This document shows, piece by piece, positions 1,037 through 16,700 of a DNA stretch of 32,000 nucleotides (positions are counted from its first letter, which is position 1; the number at the start of each line of letters is the position of its first letter). A program made the translations under genes and the position numbers. A model generated the notes under the pieces. The model saw nothing but the letters and a program-made list of their open reading frames with translations. It had not been told where the DNA came from and made no database searches. This stretch comes from Candidatus Saccharimonadota bacterium (lineage in GTDB: Bacteria; Patescibacteriota; Saccharimonadia; Saccharimonadales; Saccharimonadaceae), in contig CP064995.1 in assembly GCA_016700015.1 (NCBI GenBank), positions 810,001 through 842,000 of the forward strand, written 5' to 3'.

Positions 1037-1753
1037 ATGGTACTGTTTCTTGCCGCGCTGCTTGCGGGTGTGTTCTCTGCGCTTTCCCCCTGCGTCCTGC
1101 CGCTTATCCCCATGATGCTCGGTACGCAGACACAAGGCGGGGTGCGCCGCAGCCTCCGTGTGCTCGCCGGGCTTGGCTTGTCGGTCATTGTATTTAGTAT
1201 TCTCCTCAAGTCCACGACGCTGTTTATCGATATCCCCCGTGAAGTCTGGCAGTTCATAGGTGGCGTGATAATTGGGTTATTTGGGGCATCACTGCTGTGG
1301 CCGAACGCGTGGGAGCAGCTAGTCCTCAAAACTGGGTTCGCCACTAAAGCCCAACAACTCATGTCGACCTCCTCCTCTGGGGCCGGCAATACCAAAGATT
1401 ACCTGCTCGGCGCCAGTCTTGGTCCGCTTTTCAACGTCTGCAGCCCTACCTACGCGCTAATTGTGGCGACAATTTTGCCCGTCGAACCACTCCACGGGCT
1501 ACTCCTGCTCGTTATTTACACTCTCGGACTAACCGCCACTCTTTACGCAGTTGCCGTCGGCGGCAGCCAGATTACCCATAGGCTCGGCTGGACACTCAAC
1601 CCGCATGGCGCCTTCCGGCGCATAGTCGGCGCCCTACTCCTAGTAATCGGTATCGCCATCATATTCGGCTACGATAAACTATTCCAGACTGCGCTCGTAT
1701 CGAGCGGCTTCTTCGACTGGCAGATCCTCGTCGAATCATTCCTCGCACGCTAG
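1037..1753 (+). CDS. ccdA: cytochrome c biogenesis CcdA / DsbD-family thiol:disulfide transmembrane electron transporter
   Basis: A 238-aa polytopic membrane protein. The N-terminal FSALSPCVLPLIPMML and the later NVCSPTYALIV are the two conserved Cys-containing TM motifs of the CcdA/DsbD family. It is translationally juxtaposed to the Trx-like gene (TAG-ATG). Confidence 0.85.
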   Translation: MVLFLAALLAGVFSALSPCVLPLIPMMLGTQTQGGVRRSLRVLAGLGLSVIVFSILLKSTTLFIDIPREVWQFIGGVIIGLFGASLLWPNAWEQLVLKTGFATKAQQLMSTSSSGAGNTKDYLLGASLGPLFNVCSPTYALIVATILPVEPLHGLLLLVIYTLGLTATLYAVAVGGSQITHRLGWTLNPHGAFRRIVGALLLVIGIAIIFGYDKLFQTALVSSGFFDWQILVESFLAR

Positions 1754-1755
1754 CC

Positions 1756-2967
1756 CTATACGACTGTCAGCCAGATCAATACCAGGTTGAGCAGCACTAC
1801 CAGCGCGGTAATCGCACCGAGTATCATCGACACAAGGCGTGAGTTTGCCTGGTCGCCCATGACACTGCGCCTCGCCGAAACGATCGTCAGCGGCACCAAT
1901 GCGAATGGCACCCCAAAACTCAGCGCAACCTGCGAAATAATCAGCAAGAACAGTGGGTCAAAACTAACTACGAGCAAAAATAACGCCGGTATCATGGTGA
2001 TCAAGCGTCGTGCCCACAGTGGCACAGGCACCCGTATGAGGTCTTGCATCACCACACTCCCCGCCTGGCTACCAACCGCGGTGCTCGCAAGACCCGATAC
2101 CAACAACCCGACAGCGAATAGCACCGCAACCAGCGGCCCAAGCCGCTCGCCAAGCGCAGTAAATATATCACCAAAGCTATCTGCACCGGTTCCACCAAGC
2201 ACCGCCGCCGCTAAAAGTAACATAGATATGTTGACCGTACCAGCAATCGCCATCGCCAAACCCACATCTATCTTGGTTGCGTGTAGATACCGGCGTAGCT
2301 CCCGGGGCTTCACTTTGCCATGTCGATCACGCGCTAGCGCCGAATGCAGGTACACGACATGCGGCATGATAGTAGCACCGATCATTGCTGTCGCGAGCAA
2401 CAGGGTTTCTTGTCCATCAAAGCGTGGCACCAGCCCACCGAGTGCGCCACCAAGGTCAGGCGGATGCTGTAATAGTCCCGCAAAGAATCCAATGGGGATA
2501 ATGACCAGTAGTGCAACGATCACTCGCTCAAAATACGGTTGGCCTTTATGACTATAAACGTACAATAGCGCCATCGATACGATGCCGACGATAAGCCCGC
2601 CGAGCGGCAGCGGCAGCCCAAACAACAGATGGAGCGCTACCGCGCCACCAACAACTTCAGCGATATCGGTCGCAACTGCCACCAGTTCCGCCTGCGCCCA
2701 GTACAGCCGCCTGCCCCACCGCGGCAGCCGCTCGGCCACTAGCTCGGGCAGCGACTTGCCAGTGACAAGCCCTACCTTCGCGCTCGTATACTGCGCCAGC
2801 GCCGCCATAAGGTTGGCGAGCACCAGCACCCATAGCAGCAAAAACCCATATTTTGCGCCTGCGCCAAAATTGGCCGCAAAATTACCTGGGTCGACATAGG
2901 CCACCGCCGCCACAAACGCCGGGCCGAGTAGCCGTAGTATCCTTCGCCACTGTCGCCGCAATCTCAT
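1756..2967 (-). CDS. mntH: NRAMP-family divalent metal (Mn2+/Fe2+) transporter
   Basis: A 403-aa ORF. GPAFVAAVAYVDPGNFAANFGAGAKYGFLLLWVLVLANLMAALAQYTSAKVGLVTGKSL is the NRAMP signature (DPGN). The protein is polytopic. Confidence 0.92.
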   Translation of the reverse strand: MRLRRQWRRILRLLGPAFVAAVAYVDPGNFAANFGAGAKYGFLLLWVLVLANLMAALAQYTSAKVGLVTGKSLPELVAERLPRWGRRLYWAQAELVAVATDIAEVVGGAVALHLLFGLPLPLGGLIVGIVSMALLYVYSHKGQPYFERVIVALLVIIPIGFFAGLLQHPPDLGGALGGLVPRFDGQETLLLATAMIGATIMPHVVYLHSALARDRHGKVKPRELRRYLHATKIDVGLAMAIAGTVNISMLLLAAAVLGGTGADSFGDIFTALGERLGPLVAVLFAVGLLVSGLASTAVGSQAGSVVMQDLIRVPVPLWARRLITMIPALFLLVVSFDPLFLLIISQVALSFGVPFALVPLTIVSARRSVMGDQANSRLVSMILGAITALVVLLNLVLIWLTVV

Positions 2968-2973
2968 ACCCCT

Positions 2974-2979
2974 ATTCTA
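2974..2979 (-). promoter_or_regulatory. -10 element (TAGAAT) for mntH; leaderless configuration
   Basis: The minus strand reads gtgTAGAATaggggtATG, so the -10-like hexamer sits 6 nt before the start codon at 2967. Confidence 0.45.
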
Positions 2980-3003
2980 CACGCATCGACCCCTATTAGG
3001 TAG

Positions 3004-3032
3004 TTGACTTTTTATAGCGTTTATGCTACGAT
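3004..3032 (+). promoter_or_regulatory. sigma70-type promoter for 3066..4400 (TTGACT-17-TACGAT)
   Basis: TTGACT at 3004-3009, a 17-nt spacer TTTTATAGCGTTTATGC, and TACGAT at 3027-3032. The -35 and spacer are nearly identical to the promoters at 21080 and 22867. Confidence 0.65.
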
Positions 3033-3065
3033 AAAATAAATCAACCCAATTACAAAACAAACACT

Positions 3066-4400
3066 ATGCCCACACCTGCTAGCATCGATCATACGCCCAA
3101 ACAAAGTCTGAAGGACAAAATCAAGAAGCTGTTGGGCATGACTGCGTTATCTTTCCCTATTGAAACCCCCCCTGCCCCGACTGAAGCGACAGATACGCAC
3201 ACTCCTCCCATGGCTATAGAACAGCAGACGCCCGAGGCCGAAGAAAGGCGTACAGCAATTATCGCTCAAAACGACGCAGAAGCAACCTATGCGCCGCGCC
3301 GCGGTGCTAGCATTACTACCTATACTATAAGTGGTATACACGATTTCGACACGTCATCTTACCGTATCGATATTCTGCCTAGTAATGCAAAGCCAACTCC
3401 TGAGCAAATTGCCCTAGCCATGGAGCGTGAACATGTGGTCAAACATATACCGAAACTTCGCGAGCAGGCGCAAGATGAAAGTAGGACAAACCGCATCAGC
3501 TTTACGTTTTGGAACGAAACATACACAATGACTGAGGGCGAGGCACTGCGGCACACCGTTGATATGTTGCGCTACATTGTGGCCCATGGTCGAGGCTCTT
3601 ACGAGCGCCGCAAGGCAAAGAGTTTCTTAGACGACATGTCATTTGTTGGACGGAAAGAATACCAAGAAGCTGCCCGTGGCATTGCCGCCTATTGGAGGAA
3701 ACTCCTTGATGATGACCCCACATTAACACTTTATATCGTGGGAGATGGCATAAGTAACAATTATGCGGCAGTTAAAAGTGACCAATACCTCTTTAATACA
3801 ATACTTGGTAACTTTAGTGACAGCCAGCTGGCAGAATATGCCGATCGCCTCGTTCAATATACCGATGAAACTAGAAGCGCTATAAAATCTGGCGACAACT
3901 ACCGGGTAATTTTGCTTGACGATTGGATCATCAGCGGAAGCCAAATGAATGATGCTGCGCATTATATTATGAATCGTGTACCGCAGTGTGACGCCAGCCG
4001 TATTGAAATCCACAACGTCATCGCTACTCCGCAACGTGTTGCCATTGGGCTCCAGCCAGGGAATTACGAGTGGCGCGAGGGGCTACGCCCGATTGTTCGG
4101 TCATACTACCTGGCAAACGAGGTTGACACAGTGTATGCATCACGGAGTGGCGCGCATATATCTGGCGCACACTCAACTGTGGATTTTGACTTCCAAGACC
4201 CGCTCGATGATCTCATACAAAACACGTGGCTAAATAACTGTGACCGCAAACTCGAAGCACAGCGTTCACTGGCATTTCTCACCAAAGTCGTACGCGTTTA
4301 CTACGACCCACACTTCCGCCTCAACAACATCAAGCGACTCCAAGCCATAAAAGCAGCAAATGTCTCTACGGGCAAATTACCCGCATATGAAGTTGTGTAG
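3066..4400 (+). CDS. hypothetical protein with a phosphoribosyltransferase (type I PRT) PRPP-loop-like signature in the C-terminal half
   Basis: A 444-aa ORF with its own promoter. YRVILLDDWIISGSQMNDAAHYI matches the PRT pattern (4 hydrophobic residues, DD, hydrophobic residues, S/T-G-x-x). The N-terminal ~90 aa are Pro/Thr/Glu-rich and low complexity. I recognise no other family. Confidence 0.75.
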   Translation: MPTPASIDHTPKQSLKDKIKKLLGMTALSFPIETPPAPTEATDTHTPPMAIEQQTPEAEERRTAIIAQNDAEATYAPRRGASITTYTISGIHDFDTSSYRIDILPSNAKPTPEQIALAMEREHVVKHIPKLREQAQDESRTNRISFTFWNETYTMTEGEALRHTVDMLRYIVAHGRGSYERRKAKSFLDDMSFVGRKEYQEAARGIAAYWRKLLDDDPTLTLYIVGDGISNNYAAVKSDQYLFNTILGNFSDSQLAEYADRLVQYTDETRSAIKSGDNYRVILLDDWIISGSQMNDAAHYIMNRVPQCDASRIEIHNVIATPQRVAIGLQPGNYEWREGLRPIVRSYYLANEVDTVYASRSGAHISGAHSTVDFDFQDPLDDLIQNTWLNNCDRKLEAQRSLAFLTKVVRVYYDPHFRLNNIKRLQAIKAANVSTGKLPAYEVV

Positions 4401-4414
4401 CTCGTACGAAGCTA

Positions 4415-4443
4415 TTGACTTTCTATTATTTCTATGCTATAAT
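4415..4443 (+). promoter_or_regulatory. consensus sigma70 promoter (TTGACT-17-TATAAT with TGC extension) driving the orphan RNA
   Basis: TTGACT at 4415-4420, spacer TTCTATTATTTCTATGC (17 nt), and TATAAT at 4438-4443. It starts 15 nt after the stop of the upstream CDS. Confidence 0.75.
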
Positions 4444-4449
4444 GAAAAG

Positions 4450-4794
4450 GTCGATGTGTTGGGTAAGCGATCGATGTTTGGATCTGACGGAGACATTGTC
4501 TCTCCAGGGTCAGACCATTCCCAACGTAGCTCGGACGGGCAAGCCTGTACTGAGCGCTAAGGTCATTACCCTGCTGCCGCGTTCCTATCTCTGTGAAACT
4601 ACTTGTCATATGCAGAGAGAACGCCCAGTGAACCGACCGACAAGTCGCCTCACCAGGTACGGGCGGTCGCCGCAAAGCGACAACAGACCTTGGCGTATTG
4701 CTGGTATCTGCCCGTGGGGGGCAGAAGGCCAGAAACGTCCATCCCCCGCAAGGGGCCAGTGCAGCCTTGCACCGGCCCCATTTTCTTTTTCTTC
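4450..4794 (+). ncRNA. candidate structured non-coding RNA (~345 nt), class unknown
   Basis: Bounded by a consensus promoter and an intrinsic terminator. The segment is GC-richer than its flanks. ORFs are open in all six frames with junk-like translations. Many hand-drawn helices are listed in the findings. No plus-strand gene lies downstream. Confidence 0.55.
4752..4794 (+). terminator. intrinsic terminator of the orphan RNA
   Basis: GGGGCCAGTGCA-gcct-TGCACCGGCCCC at 4752-4779 forms 11 bp with one A/C mismatch. It is followed by ATTTTCTTTTTCTTC. Confidence 0.75.
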
Positions 4795-4802
4795 GATAGA
4801 CA

Positions 4803-4841
4803 TGGAAAAGGCGTACCGCTCCTGGTGGGAAACGGTACGCC
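4803..4841 (-). terminator. intrinsic terminator of the 4852..5193 gene
   Basis: The minus strand reads GGCGTACCG-(14 nt)-CGGTACGCC, a perfect 9-bp stem at 4810-4841, followed by TTTTCC. Confidence 0.7.
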
Positions 4842-4851
4842 ATAGCAAGGG

Positions 4852-5193
4852 TCAGTGATAGTCGCGAGCTCGCACCGGGCCAGTGCCCGGCGTCCAGGCA
4901 TGCCCGTTGAACTGGCGGTACGTCCCGGCGCGGAAGCCGTTGAACAGCCACCAGACCACTGGCACAGCCACTGCCGCAGCGGTAGCGGCGAACAGCAGGC
5001 TGTGCGTGAAGTACCACACCGCCGTTGCAATCACCGTGATGGTGAGCACCCTGTAGATCGGGCGACGAAAGAAGTTATACACGCGGGCATTCCACCGATA
5101 AGCCCGCATGCGCTTTTTGTAGTCATTTTTCACACCCTTGGCACCCCGTCCGTCACGGGTGTGAAAAAAGTCGAACTGACCTGGTTGCGACAT
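4852..5193 (-). CDS. small basic membrane protein (two predicted TM helices), hypothetical
   Basis: Part of ORF 4852..5214; I prefer ATG 5193 because AAGGAGG lies 5 nt upstream. The product MSQPGQFDFFHTRDGRGAKGVKNDYKKRMRAYRWNARVYNFFRRP... has two hydrophobic segments. G+C is about 58-60% with GC-rich third positions. Confidence 0.7.
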   Translation of the reverse strand: MSQPGQFDFFHTRDGRGAKGVKNDYKKRMRAYRWNARVYNFFRRPIYRVLTITVIATAVWYFTHSLLFAATAAAVAVPVVWWLFNGFRAGTYRQFNGHAWTPGTGPVRARDYH

Positions 5194-5278
5194 AGCGCCT
5201 CCTTGAAAGAACATCCCAAACCCAATGTTCGGGAAGACTATTTGAAATTATATCATTTTTATGAGAATATACAATACT

Positions 5279-5869
5279 CTACTGCAACTGCTTCCCAAAT
5301 ACTTTGGGCACTGGGTCACCAAAGCGTACTTCGGGTACGTCAATCACCCCGCGTACTGTCATACGGGGGAACATGCGCTGGTAAATCACATCGGCACCGC
5401 CGAACACCACCGCGGCCCAATCAAAGCCAAGTAGGCCAGCGGTTTTTTTGACAGCTGCTTCTGATTCGCCCTCGATCTCGATATACGGGTTCATCCACGG
5501 CCACTCGTCGATCACCACTTCACACTCCCCTAGCTGCCAGGTTTCACGTTTGCTCTCTTGGTAAGTCTGCACCATAAGTCCGCAAGCTTTTAGAATTTCG
5601 AGCGCGGTATCAAAACCACTCACAGGTACTTCGTGCTCGCTCGCGCTGTGCGCTTGGTCGCCATGAAACTGCTTGTAGGTAAGCGTCACTTTATCGCCTT
5701 CGTCGCGCAGGCGCACAAAAGCATCATCGCGTGCCATCTGCTCGGTTTCTATGAGTACGCGGCGCATGAGGCGCATAGGTGCGGTGCACGAGGCGCCTGC
5801 CCTAGTCAGTCGCGCACGAACATCGTCTATGTCTATATCCATAAATTTCGCTTCAATTTCTGGCTTCAT
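5279..5869 (-). CDS. CYTH-domain protein (triphosphate tunnel metalloenzyme / class IV adenylate cyclase-like)
   Basis: I use the internal start at 5869 of ORF 5279..6208. MKPEIEAKFMDIDIDDVRARL carries the N-terminal ExExK CYTH signature. The ~196-aa length is typical. The longer ORF extension overlaps the upstream gene and translates as junk. Confidence 0.8.
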   Translation of the reverse strand: MKPEIEAKFMDIDIDDVRARLTRAGASCTAPMRLMRRVLIETEQMARDDAFVRLRDEGDKVTLTYKQFHGDQAHSASEHEVPVSGFDTALEILKACGLMVQTYQESKRETWQLGECEVVIDEWPWMNPYIEIEGESEAAVKKTAGLLGFDWAAVVFGGADVIYQRMFPRMTVRGVIDVPEVRFGDPVPKVFGKQLQ

Positions 5870-5885
5870 ACTACCTAAGTATAAG

Positions 5886-6260
5886 CTACTCTTCAAAACT
5901 AGTGGGAAAGTCATTGAGACTACGATAGACAATCGGCCGGCCAGCTTTCTTGGCGTTGTCGATGCCATACCGCATGCCGCGGCTAATACCGCGGTCCATA
6001 TACACCACGGTACGCTCGGCAAACATACCGATTGCCAGGCCAGCCTCAATCCCAATATGCCGTTCAATCGGCACCGTGTCATCAAGCATCTGCGTGTACA
6101 GCAAATGGCTAGCAAACGGCGCCTCGTGGTGACGCATGAGCGCGTCGCGCATCGCCGCCATCGCGTAGTCGTGGTTGGCCCGTAAGCCCTCTTCAGTATC
6201 GGCCGCAAACGGGCTTTCTAGTAGTACAAATGTTGGTGGCCGTTCCTGCTGCGCGCTCAT
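5886..6260 (-). CDS. small hypothetical protein, nucleoside 2-deoxyribosyltransferase-like (DUF4406-like) pattern
   Basis: Internal ATG 6260 is preceded by GGGGAGAATA. The 124-aa product has FVLLESPFAAD ... TVVYMDRGISRGMRYGIDNAKKAGRPIV, resembling the two-motif layout of NDT-fold proteins. The family assignment is tentative. Confidence 0.65.
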   Translation of the reverse strand: MSAQQERPPTFVLLESPFAADTEEGLRANHDYAMAAMRDALMRHHEAPFASHLLYTQMLDDTVPIERHIGIEAGLAIGMFAERTVVYMDRGISRGMRYGIDNAKKAGRPIVYRSLNDFPTSFEE

Positions 6261-6310
6261 TATTCTCCCCTGTGACGTCCACCCAAACCTATTTGTTTTG
6301 TATTGTACCA

Positions 6311-6356
6311 CAATAAAATATGGCCGTGTGCGCTCCTTGCGGATACACACACGGCC
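6311..6356 (-). terminator. intrinsic terminator of the 6366..6860 gene
   Basis: The minus strand reads GGCCGTGTG-(17 nt)-CACACGGCC, a perfect 9-bp stem with arms at 6322-6330 and 6348-6356. It is followed by ATATTTTATTG. Confidence 0.7.
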
Positions 6357-6365
6357 GGGGGCACC

Positions 6366-6860
6366 CTACAGATCGTTGACGTTCGTCACCTCACCGCGGG
6401 GCAGTGAGATGACGTCACCATTGGCTCGTACGGTGACCATCCCTGGTAGCTGCTCGGCCTGTGCCTCGTTCATGACGCGAATGCGGAACACCCGGCCCAC
6501 CATGAATGGCGGCGGGTCGTAGGCTTCCACCATCTGCACCTCGAAAGGCCGACTGGCGATGAGCGCGTCGAGTTCGGCGATGCGCGGATCGTCGTCGCCA
6601 CACTCGGCGAGTGCCTCCAACCGCGCGGCGATGTCCGGGTCGAGCACCTCGAGCCCGCCCATCAGCCACAGGGTGTAGCTGGCAGTGACCAGGACGTAGT
6701 CGTCAACACGCGACAGACCGAAGTGGTCGTCCAGAGCGATGAGGGCTGCGAGCGTTGTCGCTGGCTCCTCGTCGAACCTGTTGGTGCCGACCTGTTCAGC
6801 CGCCGCACCCAGCGCGTCGACAAGCCCGTGGCCGAACACTAGGTCATTGGTTGATGCCAT
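6366..6860 (-). CDS. hypothetical protein (acidic, high-GC codon usage)
   Basis: A 164-aa ORF with its own promoter (6905-6933) and terminator. My hand count of 6361-6480 is 73/120 G+C (about 61%). I recognise no family. Confidence 0.7.
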   Translation of the reverse strand: MASTNDLVFGHGLVDALGAAAEQVGTNRFDEEPATTLAALIALDDHFGLSRVDDYVLVTASYTLWLMGGLEVLDPDIAARLEALAECGDDDPRIAELDALIASRPFEVQMVEAYDPPPFMVGRVFRIRVMNEAQAEQLPGMVTVRANGDVISLPRGEVTNVNDL

Positions 6861-6904
6861 TGAAATACACCTGCCTTCTGAATTGTAGGGGGTACTAAAG
6901 CAGT

Positions 6905-6933
6905 ATTATGACAAATTTACACGTATATGTCAA
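6905..6933 (-). promoter_or_regulatory. sigma70-type promoter (TTGACA-17-CATAAT) for 6366..6860
   Basis: On the minus strand, TTGACA is at 6933-6928 and CATAAT at 6910-6905, with a 17-nt spacer. Confidence 0.6.
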
Positions 6934-6934
6934 C

Positions 6935-7459
6935 CTATAGCTGCAACGCGACGCGATACGCAGCCTCTTCAAGCAGCATCTCACGAGTTATTCTACCGTC
7001 AGTCACGAGTGGGTACGGGTCTTTCAGCTCACTGCCGTAGCGCTGCTGCATCATGACGCCAAAATCTGGATACACGGCTGGTACAAGCTCGGCAATTTCA
7101 GGTGGAAACTCCACGTCAACATCGAGCCCCATTTTGCGTACACCGCCCATCTGCTCGATAATCACGATCGAAAGCCCTCGAAATCCGAGCGCCTCGTGGA
7201 GCGTATCATTGCCACTCTCGATCGTCGCTAAATACTCACCTGCTGTAGCGCCAGCAATCTCATGTAGTTGAGCGTGGCGATTCAGTGCGCCACGGATTGT
7301 TTCATCGAGGCTGAGCGGCTGCTCATTAACTCCGCTTTTCGTTGTATAGCCCACAACATCAACTGAATGTCCGGCCCGCTCCATGGCATGCTGCAGCGCA
7401 CCAAGCTTGATTGGGCTCTGGCTACTCACATGTAGGCGACGGTGATGACGCTCGGCCAT
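6935..7459 (-). CDS. inosine/xanthosine triphosphatase (YjjX/DUF84-family non-canonical purine NTP phosphatase)
   Basis: A 174-aa ORF. VSSQSPIKLGALQHAM ... VGYTTKSGVNEQPLSLDETIRGALNRH parallels the YjjX pattern (TTNPAK..A ... VESGVPEQPFG.EET..GA.NR). It starts 4 nt after the nrdB stop, so it is in the same operon. Confidence 0.8.
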   Translation of the reverse strand: MAERHHRRLHVSSQSPIKLGALQHAMERAGHSVDVVGYTTKSGVNEQPLSLDETIRGALNRHAQLHEIAGATAGEYLATIESGNDTLHEALGFRGLSIVIIEQMGGVRKMGLDVDVEFPPEIAELVPAVYPDFGVMMQQRYGSELKDPYPLVTDGRITREMLLEEAAYRVALQL

Positions 7460-7463
7460 CTCG

Positions 7464-8510
7464 CTATTTGTCGTCGTTTTCGGTTGGTTCTTCTTCGGTG
7501 CCGTCGGTCGTCGCTTTGAGCTTGGCTTCGGCGTTACCCGCGTTTACTTCGTAGCTGGTGTTGGTACTTTCGAAAAAGTTGACGAGTTCGTAGGTGTCAT
7601 TCGCGGTTGCCATCCACTTAGCGGGATTGCTCACATTGTAGTGCGGCTCGAAACCCAACTCTTCCAGGCGTCGATCGGTCAGGTATTTTACGTACTGATT
7701 AATATAGTCGGCATTGAGGCCTAGAATACCGTTTGGTAGTAGCGCCTTGTTGTATTCTTCTTCCATAGCCACGCCGTCAAGAATCATTTGCTTAATCTCT
7801 TCGGCAAATGCTGGGTCCTGTAGGTCCTCGTTTTCTTCAATAACCGTAAGAATGAGATTGATGCCAAATTTGAGGTGTAGACTCTCGTCACGCACAATCC
7901 AGTCAATCAGACTACCAAAGTTTCGAAGCAGATTTCGTTGTCGGAACGACAATGCAACCATAAAGCCAGAGTAGAACCAAATACCTTCAAGGATGATATT
8001 GTAGGCGATGAGGTTGCGGATGAAGTCTTTTTTGCCCTCTGTTGTCGTGATATCCATCGTGTCTTCGGTCATACGCTTGATATATTTGGTCTCAAACTCT
8101 TCTTTGATGGCCATCACCTTTTCATCAACATGAGCGCTATAAGCTTTTTCGCGGTCAATTGGAAAGGTATCAAGTACGTACTCAAAGGCCATACAGTGGT
8201 TGGCCTCTTCCCACATTTGCTTTGCAAGGTATAGGTGACACTCGGCGGCATTGACGTAGGGGTAGACGCCAAATGCTAGTGCTTTGTTGACCAGCAGCTC
8301 GTTAGGGTTGAAATAGCTCATGAGGAACGTCACCGCGTGGCGCTCTTCTTCGGTCATCTTTTCCCAGTCTGCAAGGTCTTGTGCCAACTGAATCTCGTTG
8401 GGGAACCACGTGTTGGCAACCGCTTGGTCATACAAATCCATCGCCCATTGGTAGTGGATTGGCTTGAGTAACAAGCCGTCTTGGATACCAGCGCCTAGTA
8501 TCTTTCCCAT
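7464..8510 (-). CDS. nrdB: ribonucleotide reductase small subunit, class Ic-like (R2c: Phe at the radical-Tyr position)
   Basis: A 348-aa ORF preceded by AAAGGAGG. The ferritin-like motifs are WEEANHCMAFEYV (E-x-x-H then F at +4), YNIILEGIWFYSGF and VRDESLHLKFG. It aligns closely by eye with Chlamydia R2c (FEEAVHTHTFLYI; YYIIMEGIFFYSGF; LRDETIHLNFG). Confidence 0.92.
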   Translation of the reverse strand: MGKILGAGIQDGLLLKPIHYQWAMDLYDQAVANTWFPNEIQLAQDLADWEKMTEEERHAVTFLMSYFNPNELLVNKALAFGVYPYVNAAECHLYLAKQMWEEANHCMAFEYVLDTFPIDREKAYSAHVDEKVMAIKEEFETKYIKRMTEDTMDITTTEGKKDFIRNLIAYNIILEGIWFYSGFMVALSFRQRNLLRNFGSLIDWIVRDESLHLKFGINLILTVIEENEDLQDPAFAEEIKQMILDGVAMEEEYNKALLPNGILGLNADYINQYVKYLTDRRLEELGFEPHYNVSNPAKWMATANDTYELVNFFESTNTSYEVNAGNAEAKLKATTDGTEEEPTENDDK

Positions 8511-8599: not shown

Positions 8600-8794
8600 C
8601 TAGCAAGCATGCTCGAGCGCATCCCCTGCCTCGGCATACCGGACATAGTGGAAGCCGAGGCGACGAAAGGCTTCTTTCAGTACCTCTTCGGTCGTTGGTT
8701 GGTCTTCCGGTGTTGCCACGATGTGCGTACCGTAGTCAGCGAAGGTATGGCCAGGATACTGCACTGCAAGCAGTGCCCGTTGTTCAGGAGTCAT
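8600..8794 (-). CDS. small hypothetical protein (64 aa) inside the nrd operon
   Basis: The ORF-track entry is preceded by GGGGGAG about 8 nt upstream. It lies between nrdA and nrdB on the same strand. The product is MTPEQRALLAVQYPGHTFADYGTHIVATPEDQPTTEEVLKEAFRRLGFHYVRYAEAGDALEHAC. Confidence 0.55.
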   Translation of the reverse strand: MTPEQRALLAVQYPGHTFADYGTHIVATPEDQPTTEEVLKEAFRRLGFHYVRYAEAGDALEHAC

Positions 8795-8807
8795 CCCTAC
8801 ACTCCCC

Positions 8808-8981
8808 CTACTGGCAACCGTCGCACATGGTCAGGTCGGCTGGATCGATCGGTGCTGCAACCTCGCCACGTGCAGTTGCCGCTTCATTGGCAGCTGTTTG
8901 AGCCTGCTCCATAGCATCGCTGATTGCCTGCAGTTTTTCTTCGAGTGTCATGGTGTCATTGATGATAGTAGATGCGTTCAT
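8808..8981 (-). CDS. small hypothetical protein (57 aa) ending in a CxxC tail (..DLTMCDGCQ), immediately after nrdA
   Basis: My own translation; the ORF is below the 60-aa cutoff of the track. The sequence is MNASTIINDTMTLEEKLQAISDAMEQAQTAANEAATARGEVAAPIDPADLTMCDGCQ. A strong RBS TAGGAGGGGAT precedes ATG 8981 and overlaps the nrdA stop. Confidence 0.5.
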   Translation of the reverse strand: MNASTIINDTMTLEEKLQAISDAMEQAQTAANEAATARGEVAAPIDPADLTMCDGCQ

Positions 8982-14739: not shown

Positions 14740-14896
14740 TGTACCCTGTCTCCTCTGTATCGACGGATAATCAAAGATGATGATAACCTATTTGTTATAA
14801 TTTGTCAATGATAATGGCACGTCAGATGCTACAGACACGCCTGTATGTTTATGGTATAGTGTGCAACACACTTTCCCACAATCGAAAGGAACGGGA

Positions 14897-16608: not shown

Positions 16609-16700
16609 TGGCGGAGAGGATGGGATTTGAACCCACGGTACGAGTTGCCTCGCACACACGCTTTCCAAGCGTGCTCTTTCAACCACTCAGACACCTCTCC
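16609..16700 (-). tRNA. tRNA-Ser (anticodon GGA), long variable arm, CCA encoded
   Basis: The reverse complement is GGAGAGGTGTCTGAGTGGTTGAAAGAGCACGCTTGGAAAGCGTGTGTGCGAGGCAACTCGTACCGTGGGTTCAAATCCCATCCTCTCCGCCA. The acceptor stem is GGAGAGG/CCTCTCC. The anticodon arm CACGC-TTGGAAA-GCGTG gives anticodon GGA. The variable arm is GCGAG-gcaa-CTCGT and the T-loop is TTCAAAT. Confidence 0.95.

What the first reader, a model, noticed from the sequence alone, without database searches (positions are those of the whole stretch)
4415..4794. Orphan ~345-nt highly structured RNA with its own consensus promoter and terminator; class not recognisable
**Transcription unit (seen).** The best promoter in the window (TTGACT-17-TGCTATAAT, 4415-4443) starts 15 nt after the stop of the upstream CDS. 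About 345 nt later comes a GC-rich hairpin plus T-tract (4752-4794). No plus-strand gene follows, so this is not a leader or riboswitch.

**Non-coding character (seen).** The interval is GC-richer than its flanks. It is open in all six frames, and no stop occurs in any plus-strand frame between 4632 and 4796. The translations are Cys/Arg/Pro-rich junk.

**Helices drawable by hand.**
- 4458-4463 / 4520-4525
- 4480-4488 / 4509-4516
- 4529-4539 / 4544-4555 (CAAG loop)
- 4579-4593 / 4613-4624 (6+6 bp with a CTA bulge)
- 4653-4658 / 4686-4692, enclosing hairpin 4666-4670 / 4677-4681
- 4701-4713 / 4719-4732
- CCCC-GCAA-GGGG (4744-4755), a GNRA hairpin that competes with the 5' arm of the terminator

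**Known classes checked.** I could not find the RNase P P4 sequence GGAAAGUCC. I found no tmRNA T-arm, CCA end or tag ORF. I found no SRP domain IV GGAA/AGCA core.

**Context.** Its neighbours are orphan or nucleotide-handling genes: a PRTase-signature protein upstream, and CYTH plus NDT-like genes downstream.
Basis: partly seen in the sequence, partly recalled or inferred. Interest (0 to 1): 0.72.

Follow-up and report, generated by a model that had tools for sequence, protein, structure and literature searches.

The report
Orphan structured RNA candidate in Saccharibacteria
A ~340-base stretch in one Saccharibacteria species has a near-perfect promoter, a strong terminator, no coding signal and an unusually stable fold, so it is probably a species-specific non-coding RNA; no relative was found anywhere, so neither its reality nor its function could be tested.

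Summary
There is a TTGACT-17-(TG)cTATAAT promoter at 4415-4443 and a 12-bp GC hairpin with a U-tract at 4752-4794. No frame looks coding, and the fold is among the most stable in the window (z about -4.4, against a window background of -0.5 +/- 1.3). Rfam 15 and ARAGORN recognise nothing.

The window is a Candidatus Saccharibacteria contig. The RNA is a strict orphan. It is 100% identical in 13 other loci fetched from the same species. It is absent from the same slot in the nearest relative, and absent from about 0.7 Mb of other Saccharibacteria loci. Searches of JGI metagenome contigs, viral contigs, phages and plasmids also found nothing. Covariation therefore cannot be tested.

One piece of context is new. 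The upstream 444-aa gene belongs to a Saccharibacteria-wide PRTase-like family. In 39 of 53 loci this gene is followed directly by an acidic ~210-aa partner gene. In the window that partner is missing, and the RNA candidate sits in its place, inside a variable island.

Best reading: a young, independently transcribed structured sRNA that shares the terminator of the PRTase-like gene, function unknown. Main rival: a non-functional remnant of cassette turnover. Interest is modest.

The parts
3004..3032 (+). Promoter of the upstream PRTase-like gene (TTGACT-17-TACGAT with TG). It is 22/29 identical to the RNA promoter. Its -35 region is conserved in relative L005.
3066..4400 (+). 444-aa PRTase-like protein of a Saccharibacteria-wide family. 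It has a disordered N-terminus (residues 1-99) and a confident core (residues 100-430).
   Evidence: Pfam PRTase-CE E 0.03 and PADLOC PRTase_III-A E 8.7e-5. 383 family members found by HMMER. AF2 pLDDT 77.7; Foldseek best hits are UPRT/HGPRT/PyrR.
4415..4443 (+). Near-consensus sigma-70 promoter with extended -10 (TTGACT-N17-TATAAT, with TG). Predicted transcription start about 4448-4450.
4449..4794 (+). Candidate non-coding RNA of about 340-345 nt.
4480..4516 (+). Hairpin: outer stem 4483-4488/4509-4514 (probability 0.97), inner stem 4489-4494/4498-4503.
4529..4555 (+). 11-bp hairpin with a CAAG loop (probability 0.98-0.99).
4556..4694 (+). Central multi-branched domain. It is closed by the 9-bp helix 4556-4564/4686-4694 (probability 1.0). 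It contains hairpins 4579-4624, 4628-4653 and 4666-4681. z = -4.02 on the plus strand against -3.12 on the minus strand.
4701..4732 (+). 12-bp GC-rich hairpin with a GUGGG loop (probability 0.99).
4752..4794 (+). Intrinsic terminator: a 12-bp stem with one A.C mismatch, a GCCU loop and the tail AUUUUCUUUUUCUU. It is the first plus-strand terminator after the 444-aa gene, so it also ends that mRNA.
   Evidence: one search lists no other plus-strand terminator-like site in 3000-7000
4810..4841 (-). Separate intrinsic terminator of the convergent 113-aa gene.
4852..5193 (-). Convergent 113-aa small membrane-protein gene (true coding gene). It is present in relative L005 without the RNA.
   Evidence: differences by codon position 21/16/50

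Best explanation
The interval 4449-4794 is a lineage-restricted, independently transcribed, structured non-coding RNA of about 340 nt.

**Shown.**
- It has its own near-consensus sigma-70 promoter, placed immediately after the stop codon of the 444-aa PRTase-like gene.
- Its intrinsic terminator is also the first terminator available to that gene's mRNA. The same sequence would therefore also be the 3' UTR of read-through PRTase-like transcripts. This matches the architecture of 3'-end-derived sRNAs that have their own promoter.
- The promoter, the terminator, the non-coding composition and the unusually stable, well-defined fold are all present. The element and the 444-aa gene together occupy a variable slot.

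**Inferred.**
- It is transcribed as a discrete RNA.
- It functions with, or on, the neighbouring PRTase-like gene product, whose usual protein partner is missing here.
- I cannot say how it acts. The most likely options are direct binding of the protein, or cis/trans control of its mRNA.
For: **Promoter.**
- It scores 11/12 with an extended -10.
- Promoter motifs of this quality are strongly enriched in the window. Apart from one minus-strand match at 14780, the other instances sit in front of ORFs.

**Terminator.** A strong intrinsic terminator is present.

**Non-coding composition.**
- All six frames score like off-frame sequence.
- The ORF translations have no Pfam hit.
- The only long plus-strand ORF runs through the terminator.

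**Fold.**
- z = -4.39.
- The body without the terminator gives z = -3.58 on the plus strand and -3.05 on the minus strand.
- The central domain gives z = -4.02 with MFE ensemble frequency 0.11 on the plus strand, against -3.12 and 0.015 on the minus strand.
- The tiles over the RNA are among the most extreme of 180 tiles in the window, comparable to the tile containing the tRNA.

**Context.**
- In 39 of 53 loci the PRTase-like family is followed directly by an acidic partner gene.
- The window and about 7 kb of extra flank of the same genome lack that partner.
- The 444-aa protein keeps all family-invariant residues.
- PRTase-fold proteins that bind nucleic acid are known. The PyrR structure 1ufr is among the fold hits. 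Classic PRTases binding single-stranded RNA is noted in PMC5512222. Retron type III-A PRTase-like effectors are held by RT-ncRNA/msDNA (PMC12746101, abstract).
Against: **No homologue found.**
- None in the nearest relative's syntenic slot (L005).
- None in 68 non-self Saccharibacteria loci, about 0.7 Mb.
- None in JGI metagenome contigs or viral contigs by translated fuzzy scans.
- None in phages or plasmids.

**No variation to analyse.** All 13 same-species loci are 100% identical over the element, so there is no covariation and no evidence of selection.

**No link to the protein family.** No PRTase-like homologue elsewhere is accompanied by a similar RNA.

**Weak strand signal.** Over the full length, the minus strand folds about as well as the plus strand.

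**No expression data.**
Confidence: 0.5

Rival explanations
1. It is a non-functional remnant of cassette turnover. The module arrived as a PRTase-like gene plus a second gene. That second gene was the usual acidic partner, or another gene with its own promoter. It was deleted or decayed, leaving a promoter, about 340 nt of junk and the operon terminator. Any transcript would be fortuitous.
For: - The element occupies exactly the position of the partner gene seen in 39 of 53 loci.
- The slot between Nramp and the nrd-side genes is highly variable among relatives. In L005 it holds an unrelated 467-aa ORF plus an acyltransferase between the same conserved promoter and a terminator.
- The element has strict orphan status.
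Against: - There is no detectable similarity to the partner family, by tblastn or by profile search of six-frame translations.
- No frame keeps any coding signature.
- A decaying gene is not expected to be one of the most stably folded segments of the window, nor to have a well-defined ensemble.
- The promoter is near-perfect rather than degraded.
Confidence: 0.3
2. It acts only in cis, as a long structured 3' UTR of the PRTase-like mRNA. In that role it would stabilise the mRNA or insulate it from convergent transcription. The internal promoter would be incidental.
For: - No plus-strand terminator lies between the stop codon at 4400 and 4752, so the mRNA must include this sequence.
- The 113-aa gene is convergent and has its own terminator 15 nt away.
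Against: - A promoter scoring 11/12 with an extended -10, placed 14 nt after the stop codon, is unlikely to be accidental. The expected count is 0.2 per window for a looser pattern.
- A 390-nt 3' UTR is unusually long for a genome of about 1 Mb.
Confidence: 0.12
3. It is a diverged copy of a known housekeeping or mobile-element RNA that the models fail to score. Candidates are RNase P RNA, tmRNA, SRP, 6S/Ms1, a retron ncRNA and an omega-RNA.
For: Its size is similar to RNase P RNA, tmRNA and Ms1. It has a strong promoter.
Against: - No Rfam family reaches the gathering threshold.
- The 301-nt body gives no match at all at E <= 10. The only sub-threshold hits are hairpin-plus-terminator look-alikes.
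- ARAGORN finds no tmRNA.
- It is absent from the syntenic region of relatives, in a variable island.
- There is no RT, TnpB or IscB gene within about 10 kb.
Confidence: 0.03
4. It encodes a small protein.
For: - An ORF of 147 codons (4415-4858) spans the region.
- The 3' half is depleted of stop trinucleotides on both strands: 1 observed against about 6.8 expected.
Against: - The ORF runs through the terminator and ends beyond it.
- Codon usage is off-frame-like in all frames.
- There is no Pfam match.
- The gene callers of three assemblies call nothing here.
- The only GGAG lies inside a stem.
Confidence: 0.03

Closest known systems
3'-end-derived bacterial sRNAs with their own promoter, sharing the terminator of the upstream mRNA (the MicL/DapZ type; from my own knowledge)
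   Same: The promoter sits at the end of the upstream gene. The terminator is shared with that gene's mRNA. The transcript is independent and non-coding.
   Different: - The promoter lies just after the CDS, not inside it.
- At about 340 nt and multi-branched, it is larger and more structured than typical base-pairing sRNAs.
- No seed region or target was identified (one search was uninformative).
- Chaperone dependence is unknown.
Type III-A retrons (ncRNA + reverse transcriptase + PRTase-like effector; PMC7736814, PMC12746101)
   Same: A PRTase-like protein lies next to a structured ncRNA gene. The protein's best defence-library match is PRTase_III-A (E 8.7e-5).
   Different: - No reverse transcriptase lies within about 10 kb.
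- The RNA is downstream of the PRTase-like gene.
- The protein family's usual neighbour is an acidic ~210-aa protein, not an RT.
- The match is weak and below Pfam cut-offs.
Type III toxin-antitoxin systems (ToxIN-like RNA antitoxins; from my own knowledge)
   Same: The concept of an RNA gene adjacent to a protein that it neutralises by direct binding.
   Different: - Those antitoxins are tandem repeats of about 34-45 nt placed upstream of an endoribonuclease toxin.
- Here there are no repeats, the RNA is downstream, and the protein has a PRTase-like fold.
PyrR / pyr-leader RNA (a PRTase-fold RNA-binding attenuation protein; from my own knowledge; the PyrR structure 1ufr is among the fold hits)
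   Same: A PRTase-fold protein that binds a structured RNA.
   Different: - The PyrR binding site is a short 5' leader element in front of pyr genes and is an Rfam family.
- That family gives no match here, and the RNA is not a leader.
Rfam BjrC68 (RF02353) and ar35 (RF02346)
   Same: A hairpin followed by a GC-rich terminator hairpin and a U-tract at 4707-4790.
   Different: Scores are 23.7 and 20.4 bits against gathering thresholds of 39 and 45. Only the generic 3' hairpins match. It is not a member.

Membership tests
Any Rfam 15 family (including RNase P RF00010/11, tmRNA RF00023, SRP RF00169/RF01854, 6S RF00013) | Covariance-model score at or above the family's gathering threshold | tested here: not met
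   the only hit in the window is a tRNA at 16612-16700; the best hit is BjrC68 at 23.7 bits against 39; no match at E <= 10 for 4445-4745.
tmRNA | tRNA-like domain plus a tag reading frame | tested here: not met
   ARAGORN finds only tRNA-Ser.
Housekeeping RNA of any class | Conserved in related genomes | tested here: inconclusive
   It is absent from all 68 non-self related loci. Whole genomes of relatives could not be searched.
Retron (type III-A) | Reverse transcriptase gene adjacent to the ncRNA | tested here: not met
   the precomputed Pfam lists for all genes within about 10 kb contain no RT family.
Retron (type III-A) | PRTase-like effector of the retron clade | tested here: inconclusive
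   PADLOC PRTase_III-A E 8.7e-5 at 20 bits. Pfam PRTase-CE scores 14.6 bits against a cut-off of 27.
Type III toxin-antitoxin | RNA antitoxin made of tandem direct repeats upstream of the toxin gene | tested here: not met
   there are no tandem repeats in 4380-4870. The RNA lies downstream of the protein gene.
Type I toxin-antitoxin (convergent sRNA with a small membrane protein) | Antisense overlap or extended complementarity with the toxin mRNA, and co-occurrence of the pair | tested here: not met
   The two terminators are separate (hairpins 4752-4779 and 4810-4841). Relative L005 keeps the 114-aa gene without the RNA.
Independent sigma-70 / intrinsic-terminator sRNA gene | Promoter consensus at the 5' end | tested here: met
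Independent sigma-70 / intrinsic-terminator sRNA gene | Intrinsic terminator at the 3' end | tested here: met
Independent sigma-70 / intrinsic-terminator sRNA gene | Discrete transcript of the predicted size | not testable with these tools
   No expression data are accessible.
Structured RNA family (in the general sense) | Covariation supporting the helices across homologues | not testable with these tools
   The only copies available are identical.
Protein-coding gene | Codon usage like the genome's genes, with an ORF ending before the terminator | tested here: not met
Partner gene of the PRTase-like family (as a pseudogene) | Residual similarity to the partner profile | tested here: not met
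   the best six-frame hits in the window have E > 5 and lie elsewhere. At the expected divergence (homologues are at most 40% identical) a decayed copy might be undetectable.

The most novel reading that the evidence does not exclude
In this lineage a structured RNA has functionally replaced the conserved acidic protein partner of a PRTase-like conflict or toxin-type protein. It would act as an RNA antitoxin, regulator or cofactor that binds the PRTase-fold protein directly. That would be an RT-less analogue of how retron RT-ncRNA/msDNA holds PRTase-like effectors.
Probability: 0.1. Interest if true: 0.75.

Novelty: new member of a known kind. Interest (0 to 1): 0.33.

Why it matters
If real, this would be one of very few candidate regulatory or structured RNAs described in Saccharibacteria, a group of ultrasmall epibionts with genomes of about 1 Mb.

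Its position is suggestive. It sits where a protein partner of a widespread, uncharacterised PRTase-like two-gene module normally lies. That would make a protein-to-RNA partner swap experimentally testable.

On present evidence it remains a single-species orphan with no comparative support, so its value is as a lead, not a discovery. The PRTase-like/partner module found along the way is the more broadly relevant by-product.

Tried and rejected
**Known RNA classes.**
- Rfam at gathering and at E <= 10, on the whole window, on 4300-4950 and on the terminator-free body. Nothing but terminator look-alikes.
- ARAGORN. No tmRNA.

**Homologue searches.**
- Via the upstream 444-aa protein. Only a 99% twin and a 32% homologue were found, and the latter is followed by a CDS.
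- Via the downstream 113-aa protein in GTDB genomes. Nothing, so the species is apparently not in that collection.
- Via 113-aa and Nramp homologues plus their contigs. The RNA is absent, or the copies are identical.
- Stop-free translations of both strands of the RNA, used as fuzzy DNA probes in viral and JGI metagenome contigs. Nothing. I estimate this would catch only homologues of roughly 88% identity or more.
- blastn against phages and plasmids. Nothing.
- nhmmer --max against all fetched loci and against the rest of the window. Nothing.

**Alternative origins of the sequence.**
- Pseudogene of the L005 acyltransferase or 467-aa ORF. No similarity.
- Pseudogene of the partner family. No similarity.
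- Internal tandem or direct repeats, as in a type III antitoxin. None.

**Functional leads.**
- RNA-mRNA duplex scan against translation-initiation regions of the window's genes. Uninformative; the 444-aa TIR is not a preferred target.
- Nucleic-acid mimicry by the acidic partner. The partner is acidic (median net charge -16), but so are the PRTase-like proteins, so this carries no weight.

**Not run.**
- I did not build a single-sequence covariance model. With no sequence signal and partner genes filling the homologous positions, it was unlikely to add anything.

Full report
**What the window is**

- The 444-aa ORF upstream of the finding is found verbatim on ENA contig ERZ25038134 NODE_127 (35 kb).
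- The 113-aa ORF downstream is 100% identical to a protein annotated in a 'Candidatus Saccharibacteria bacterium' with locus tag IPM09_04490; the longest contig carrying this protein is 1.01 Mb.
- The Nramp gene next door is 79% identical to that of Ca. Saccharimonas aalborgensis.
- The window is therefore chromosomal DNA of an uncultured Saccharibacterium (TM7).

**Checking the observation**

*Promoter.*
- The promoter is real: TTGACT, a 17-nt spacer ending in TGC, then TATAAT, at 4415-4443. It scores 11/12 with an extended -10.
- It begins 14 nt after the TAG stop of the 444-aa ORF.
- Such motifs are not background noise here. TGNTATAAT occurs 5 times against 0.69 expected. The other four copies lie just upstream of pyrG, the 113-aa gene and two other ORFs.
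- TTGAC-N18-TANNAT occurs 5 times against 0.2 expected. Three of the other four copies precede ORFs, including the 444-aa gene itself at 3004-3032.

*Terminator.*
- The terminator is GGGGCCAGUGCA-GCCU-UGCACCGGCCCC followed by AUUUUCUUUUUCUU.
- Its pair probabilities are 0.96-1.0.
- The pattern scan missed it only because of one A.C mismatch in the stem.
- The convergent 113-aa gene has its own separate terminator at 4841-4810.

*Coding potential.*
- The interval does not look coding. A codon-usage log-odds score, trained leave-one-out on 24 ORFs of the window, gives +0.27 +/- 0.10 for real gene chunks (minimum -0.02). The six frames of 4445-4795 score -0.16 to -0.39.
- The ORF translations hit no Pfam family.
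- The only long plus-strand ORF runs through the terminator.
- Three independent assemblies have no gene call there.

*Fold.*
- Over 4445-4796 the plus strand gives z = -4.39 and the minus strand -4.07.
- Tiling the whole window in 352-nt pieces on both strands gives a background of -0.54 +/- 1.30. The tiles over the RNA (-4.6 and -5.1) are among the three most extreme of 180. The tile holding the tRNA scores -4.45.
- Without the terminator the body still gives -3.58 on the plus strand against -3.05 on the minus strand.
- The central domain 4556-4694 gives -4.02 with an MFE ensemble frequency of 0.11 on the plus strand, against -3.12 and 0.015 on the minus strand. This is a modest strand preference that agrees with the promoter and terminator.
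The helix 4653-4658/4686-4692 is replaced by a 9-bp helix 4556-4564/4686-4694.

*Two corrections.*
- Only about 4651-4796 is open in all six frames. The 5' half has a normal number of stops. The 3' half has 1 stop trinucleotide on both strands against about 6.8 expected.
- The downstream flank is as GC-rich as the element.

**Known classes**

- Rfam 15 at gathering thresholds finds only a tRNA-Ser at 16612-16700.
- At E <= 10 the only matches are sub-threshold hairpin-plus-terminator resemblances: BjrC68 at 23.7 bits against 39, and ar35.
- The terminator-free body gives no match at all.
- ARAGORN finds no tmRNA.

**Search for relatives**

All of these searches failed.
- Thirteen other loci of the same species, fetched from several different sequencing projects, are 100% identical over whatever part of the element they cover. 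L076 ends just short of it. There is no variation to analyse.
- The nearest different relative is L005 (Nramp 88%, 113-aa protein 76%). It keeps the flanking genes and even the cassette promoter. Between them it carries an unrelated 467-aa ORF and an acyltransferase.
- More distant relatives have other content in this slot: nothing at all, an NTPase plus dCMP deaminase, an MmeI restriction-modification gene, or an adenosine deaminase.
- blastn and nhmmer --max against 68 non-self Saccharibacteria loci (about 0.7 Mb) give nothing beyond promoter-like 14-34-mers.
- Stop-free translations of both strands, used as degenerate probes, found nothing in viral contigs or JGI metagenome contigs. I estimate this would detect only homologues of roughly 88% identity or more.
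- Phage and plasmid collections give nothing.
It evidently lacks this species anyway: neither the 113-aa nor the 444-aa protein was recovered there.

**New context**

- The 444-aa protein is not an orphan. A full HMMER scan finds 383 family members.
- It gives weak matches to Pfam PRTase-CE and to PADLOC PRTase_III-A.
- The AF2 model has pLDDT 77.7 and pTM 0.78. Its best solved-structure neighbours are UPRT, HGPRT and PyrR, at weak scores.
- A scan of GTDB genomes with the family alignment returned 53 loci, nearly all Saccharibacteria.
- In 39 of them the PRTase-like gene is followed at once, usually with overlap, by a ~200-250-aa acidic helical partner ORF. The same holds for the only distant homologue found by the word-based search (L004).
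- Neither the window nor the roughly 7 kb of extra flank of this genome held in L002 contains a partner homologue.
- The RNA candidate sits exactly where the partner should be. It lies between the PRTase-like gene and the first plus-strand terminator.
- None of the 14 partner-less loci has a comparable non-coding element.

**Interpretation**

- The promoter quality, the terminator, the absence of coding signal and the exceptional fold together make a transcribed non-coding RNA the most economical reading. I give it about 0.5, plus about 0.12 for a purely cis 3'-UTR role.
- Because no terminator separates it from the 444-aa gene, the same sequence is also the 3' UTR of that mRNA. The architecture is that of a 3'-end sRNA with its own promoter.
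- A functional link to the PRTase-like protein is an inference from position only. It has conceptual precedents. PRTase-fold proteins can bind RNA (PyrR; remark in PMC5512222). Retron type III-A PRTase-like effectors are controlled by an RT-ncRNA/msDNA complex (PMC12746101).
- The element fails membership of those systems. There is no RT nearby. There are no antitoxin-like repeats.
- The main rival, at about 0.3, is that this is debris from cassette turnover in a recombination-prone slot. No data I could obtain exclude this, because there is no comparative or expression evidence.

**Verdict**

- The interpretation as an unclassifiable orphan RNA is partly supported.
- The candidate is best described as a new, single-species member of the general class of promoter- and terminator-bounded bacterial sRNAs.
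- Interest is modest (0.33). The more novel possibility, an RNA standing in for a protein partner of a PRTase-like conflict module, has low probability (about 0.1) but is directly testable.

Noticed in passing
window 3066-4400; loci L014-L066 (match at about 5001-6100, partner immediately downstream): There is a Saccharibacteria-wide, uncharacterised two-gene module. It consists of a PRTase-like protein (383 members at 50% clustering) followed directly by an acidic ~200-250-aa helical partner. The partner shows recurring sequence blocks such as EGIGNRMLIRDFL and IVEELWKNVQDYRE in many members (read off the sequences). The pairing is present in 39 of 53 loci. The PRTase-like domain also occurs at the C-terminus of ~850-aa proteins and inside ORFs of about 1900-2240 aa (L056, L061, P0197). 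The layout resembles toxin-immunity or TA pairs, but the function is unknown.
   Followed up: partly
window 2968-4850; L005 5980-8375; L008, L011, L077, L078, L080: The slot between Nramp and the nrd-side genes is a hot spot of gene turnover among close relatives. In different relatives it holds 444-aa + RNA, 467-aa + acyltransferase, nothing, NTPase + dCMP deaminase, an MmeI restriction-modification gene, or a 723-aa adenosine deaminase. The cassette promoter's -35 region is conserved between the window and L005, although the cassettes are unrelated.
   Followed up: partly
window 1345-3443: Thirty of the 33 SNPs between the window and strains L002/L003 (over 14.4 kb compared) cluster in this 2.1-kb tract, which covers DsbD-like, Nramp and the 5' end of the 444-aa gene. 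Elsewhere the strains are nearly identical. This looks like a recombination tract.
   Followed up: no
window 4929-5280 (+): This is the most extreme folding z-score tile of the whole window (-5.3, from 25 shuffles). It lies on the strand antisense to the 113-aa membrane-protein gene; the sense strand gives -2.9. I did not look for a plus-strand promoter, and the result is unexplained.
   Followed up: no
window 3004-3032 and 4415-4443; L005 about 8290-8320 (-); L011-13 14804-14837: A clade-typical promoter shape, TTGACTTTTTAT...TGCTAnnAT, recurs. The two promoters of the cassette are 22/29 identical to each other. Similar sequences precede genes in other Saccharibacteria loci.
   Followed up: partly
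L067-L076 (same species, several sequencing projects): Stretches of 1.4-4.4 kb from assemblies of several unrelated sequencing projects are 100% identical to the window, apart from one SNP at 6357. This suggests a very clonal, widely distributed population.
   Followed up: partly
L001 10350-10731 (window ~8600-8981, minus strand): Two small ORFs (57 aa and about 64 aa) lie between nrdA and nrdB. A 57-aa ORF is called at the same place in L005, L008, L011 and L077, which suggests a conserved small protein in the nrd operon.
   Followed up: no
window 16609-16700 (-): tRNA-Ser(GGA) with a long variable arm. It is the only Rfam or ARAGORN hit in the window.
   Followed up: yes
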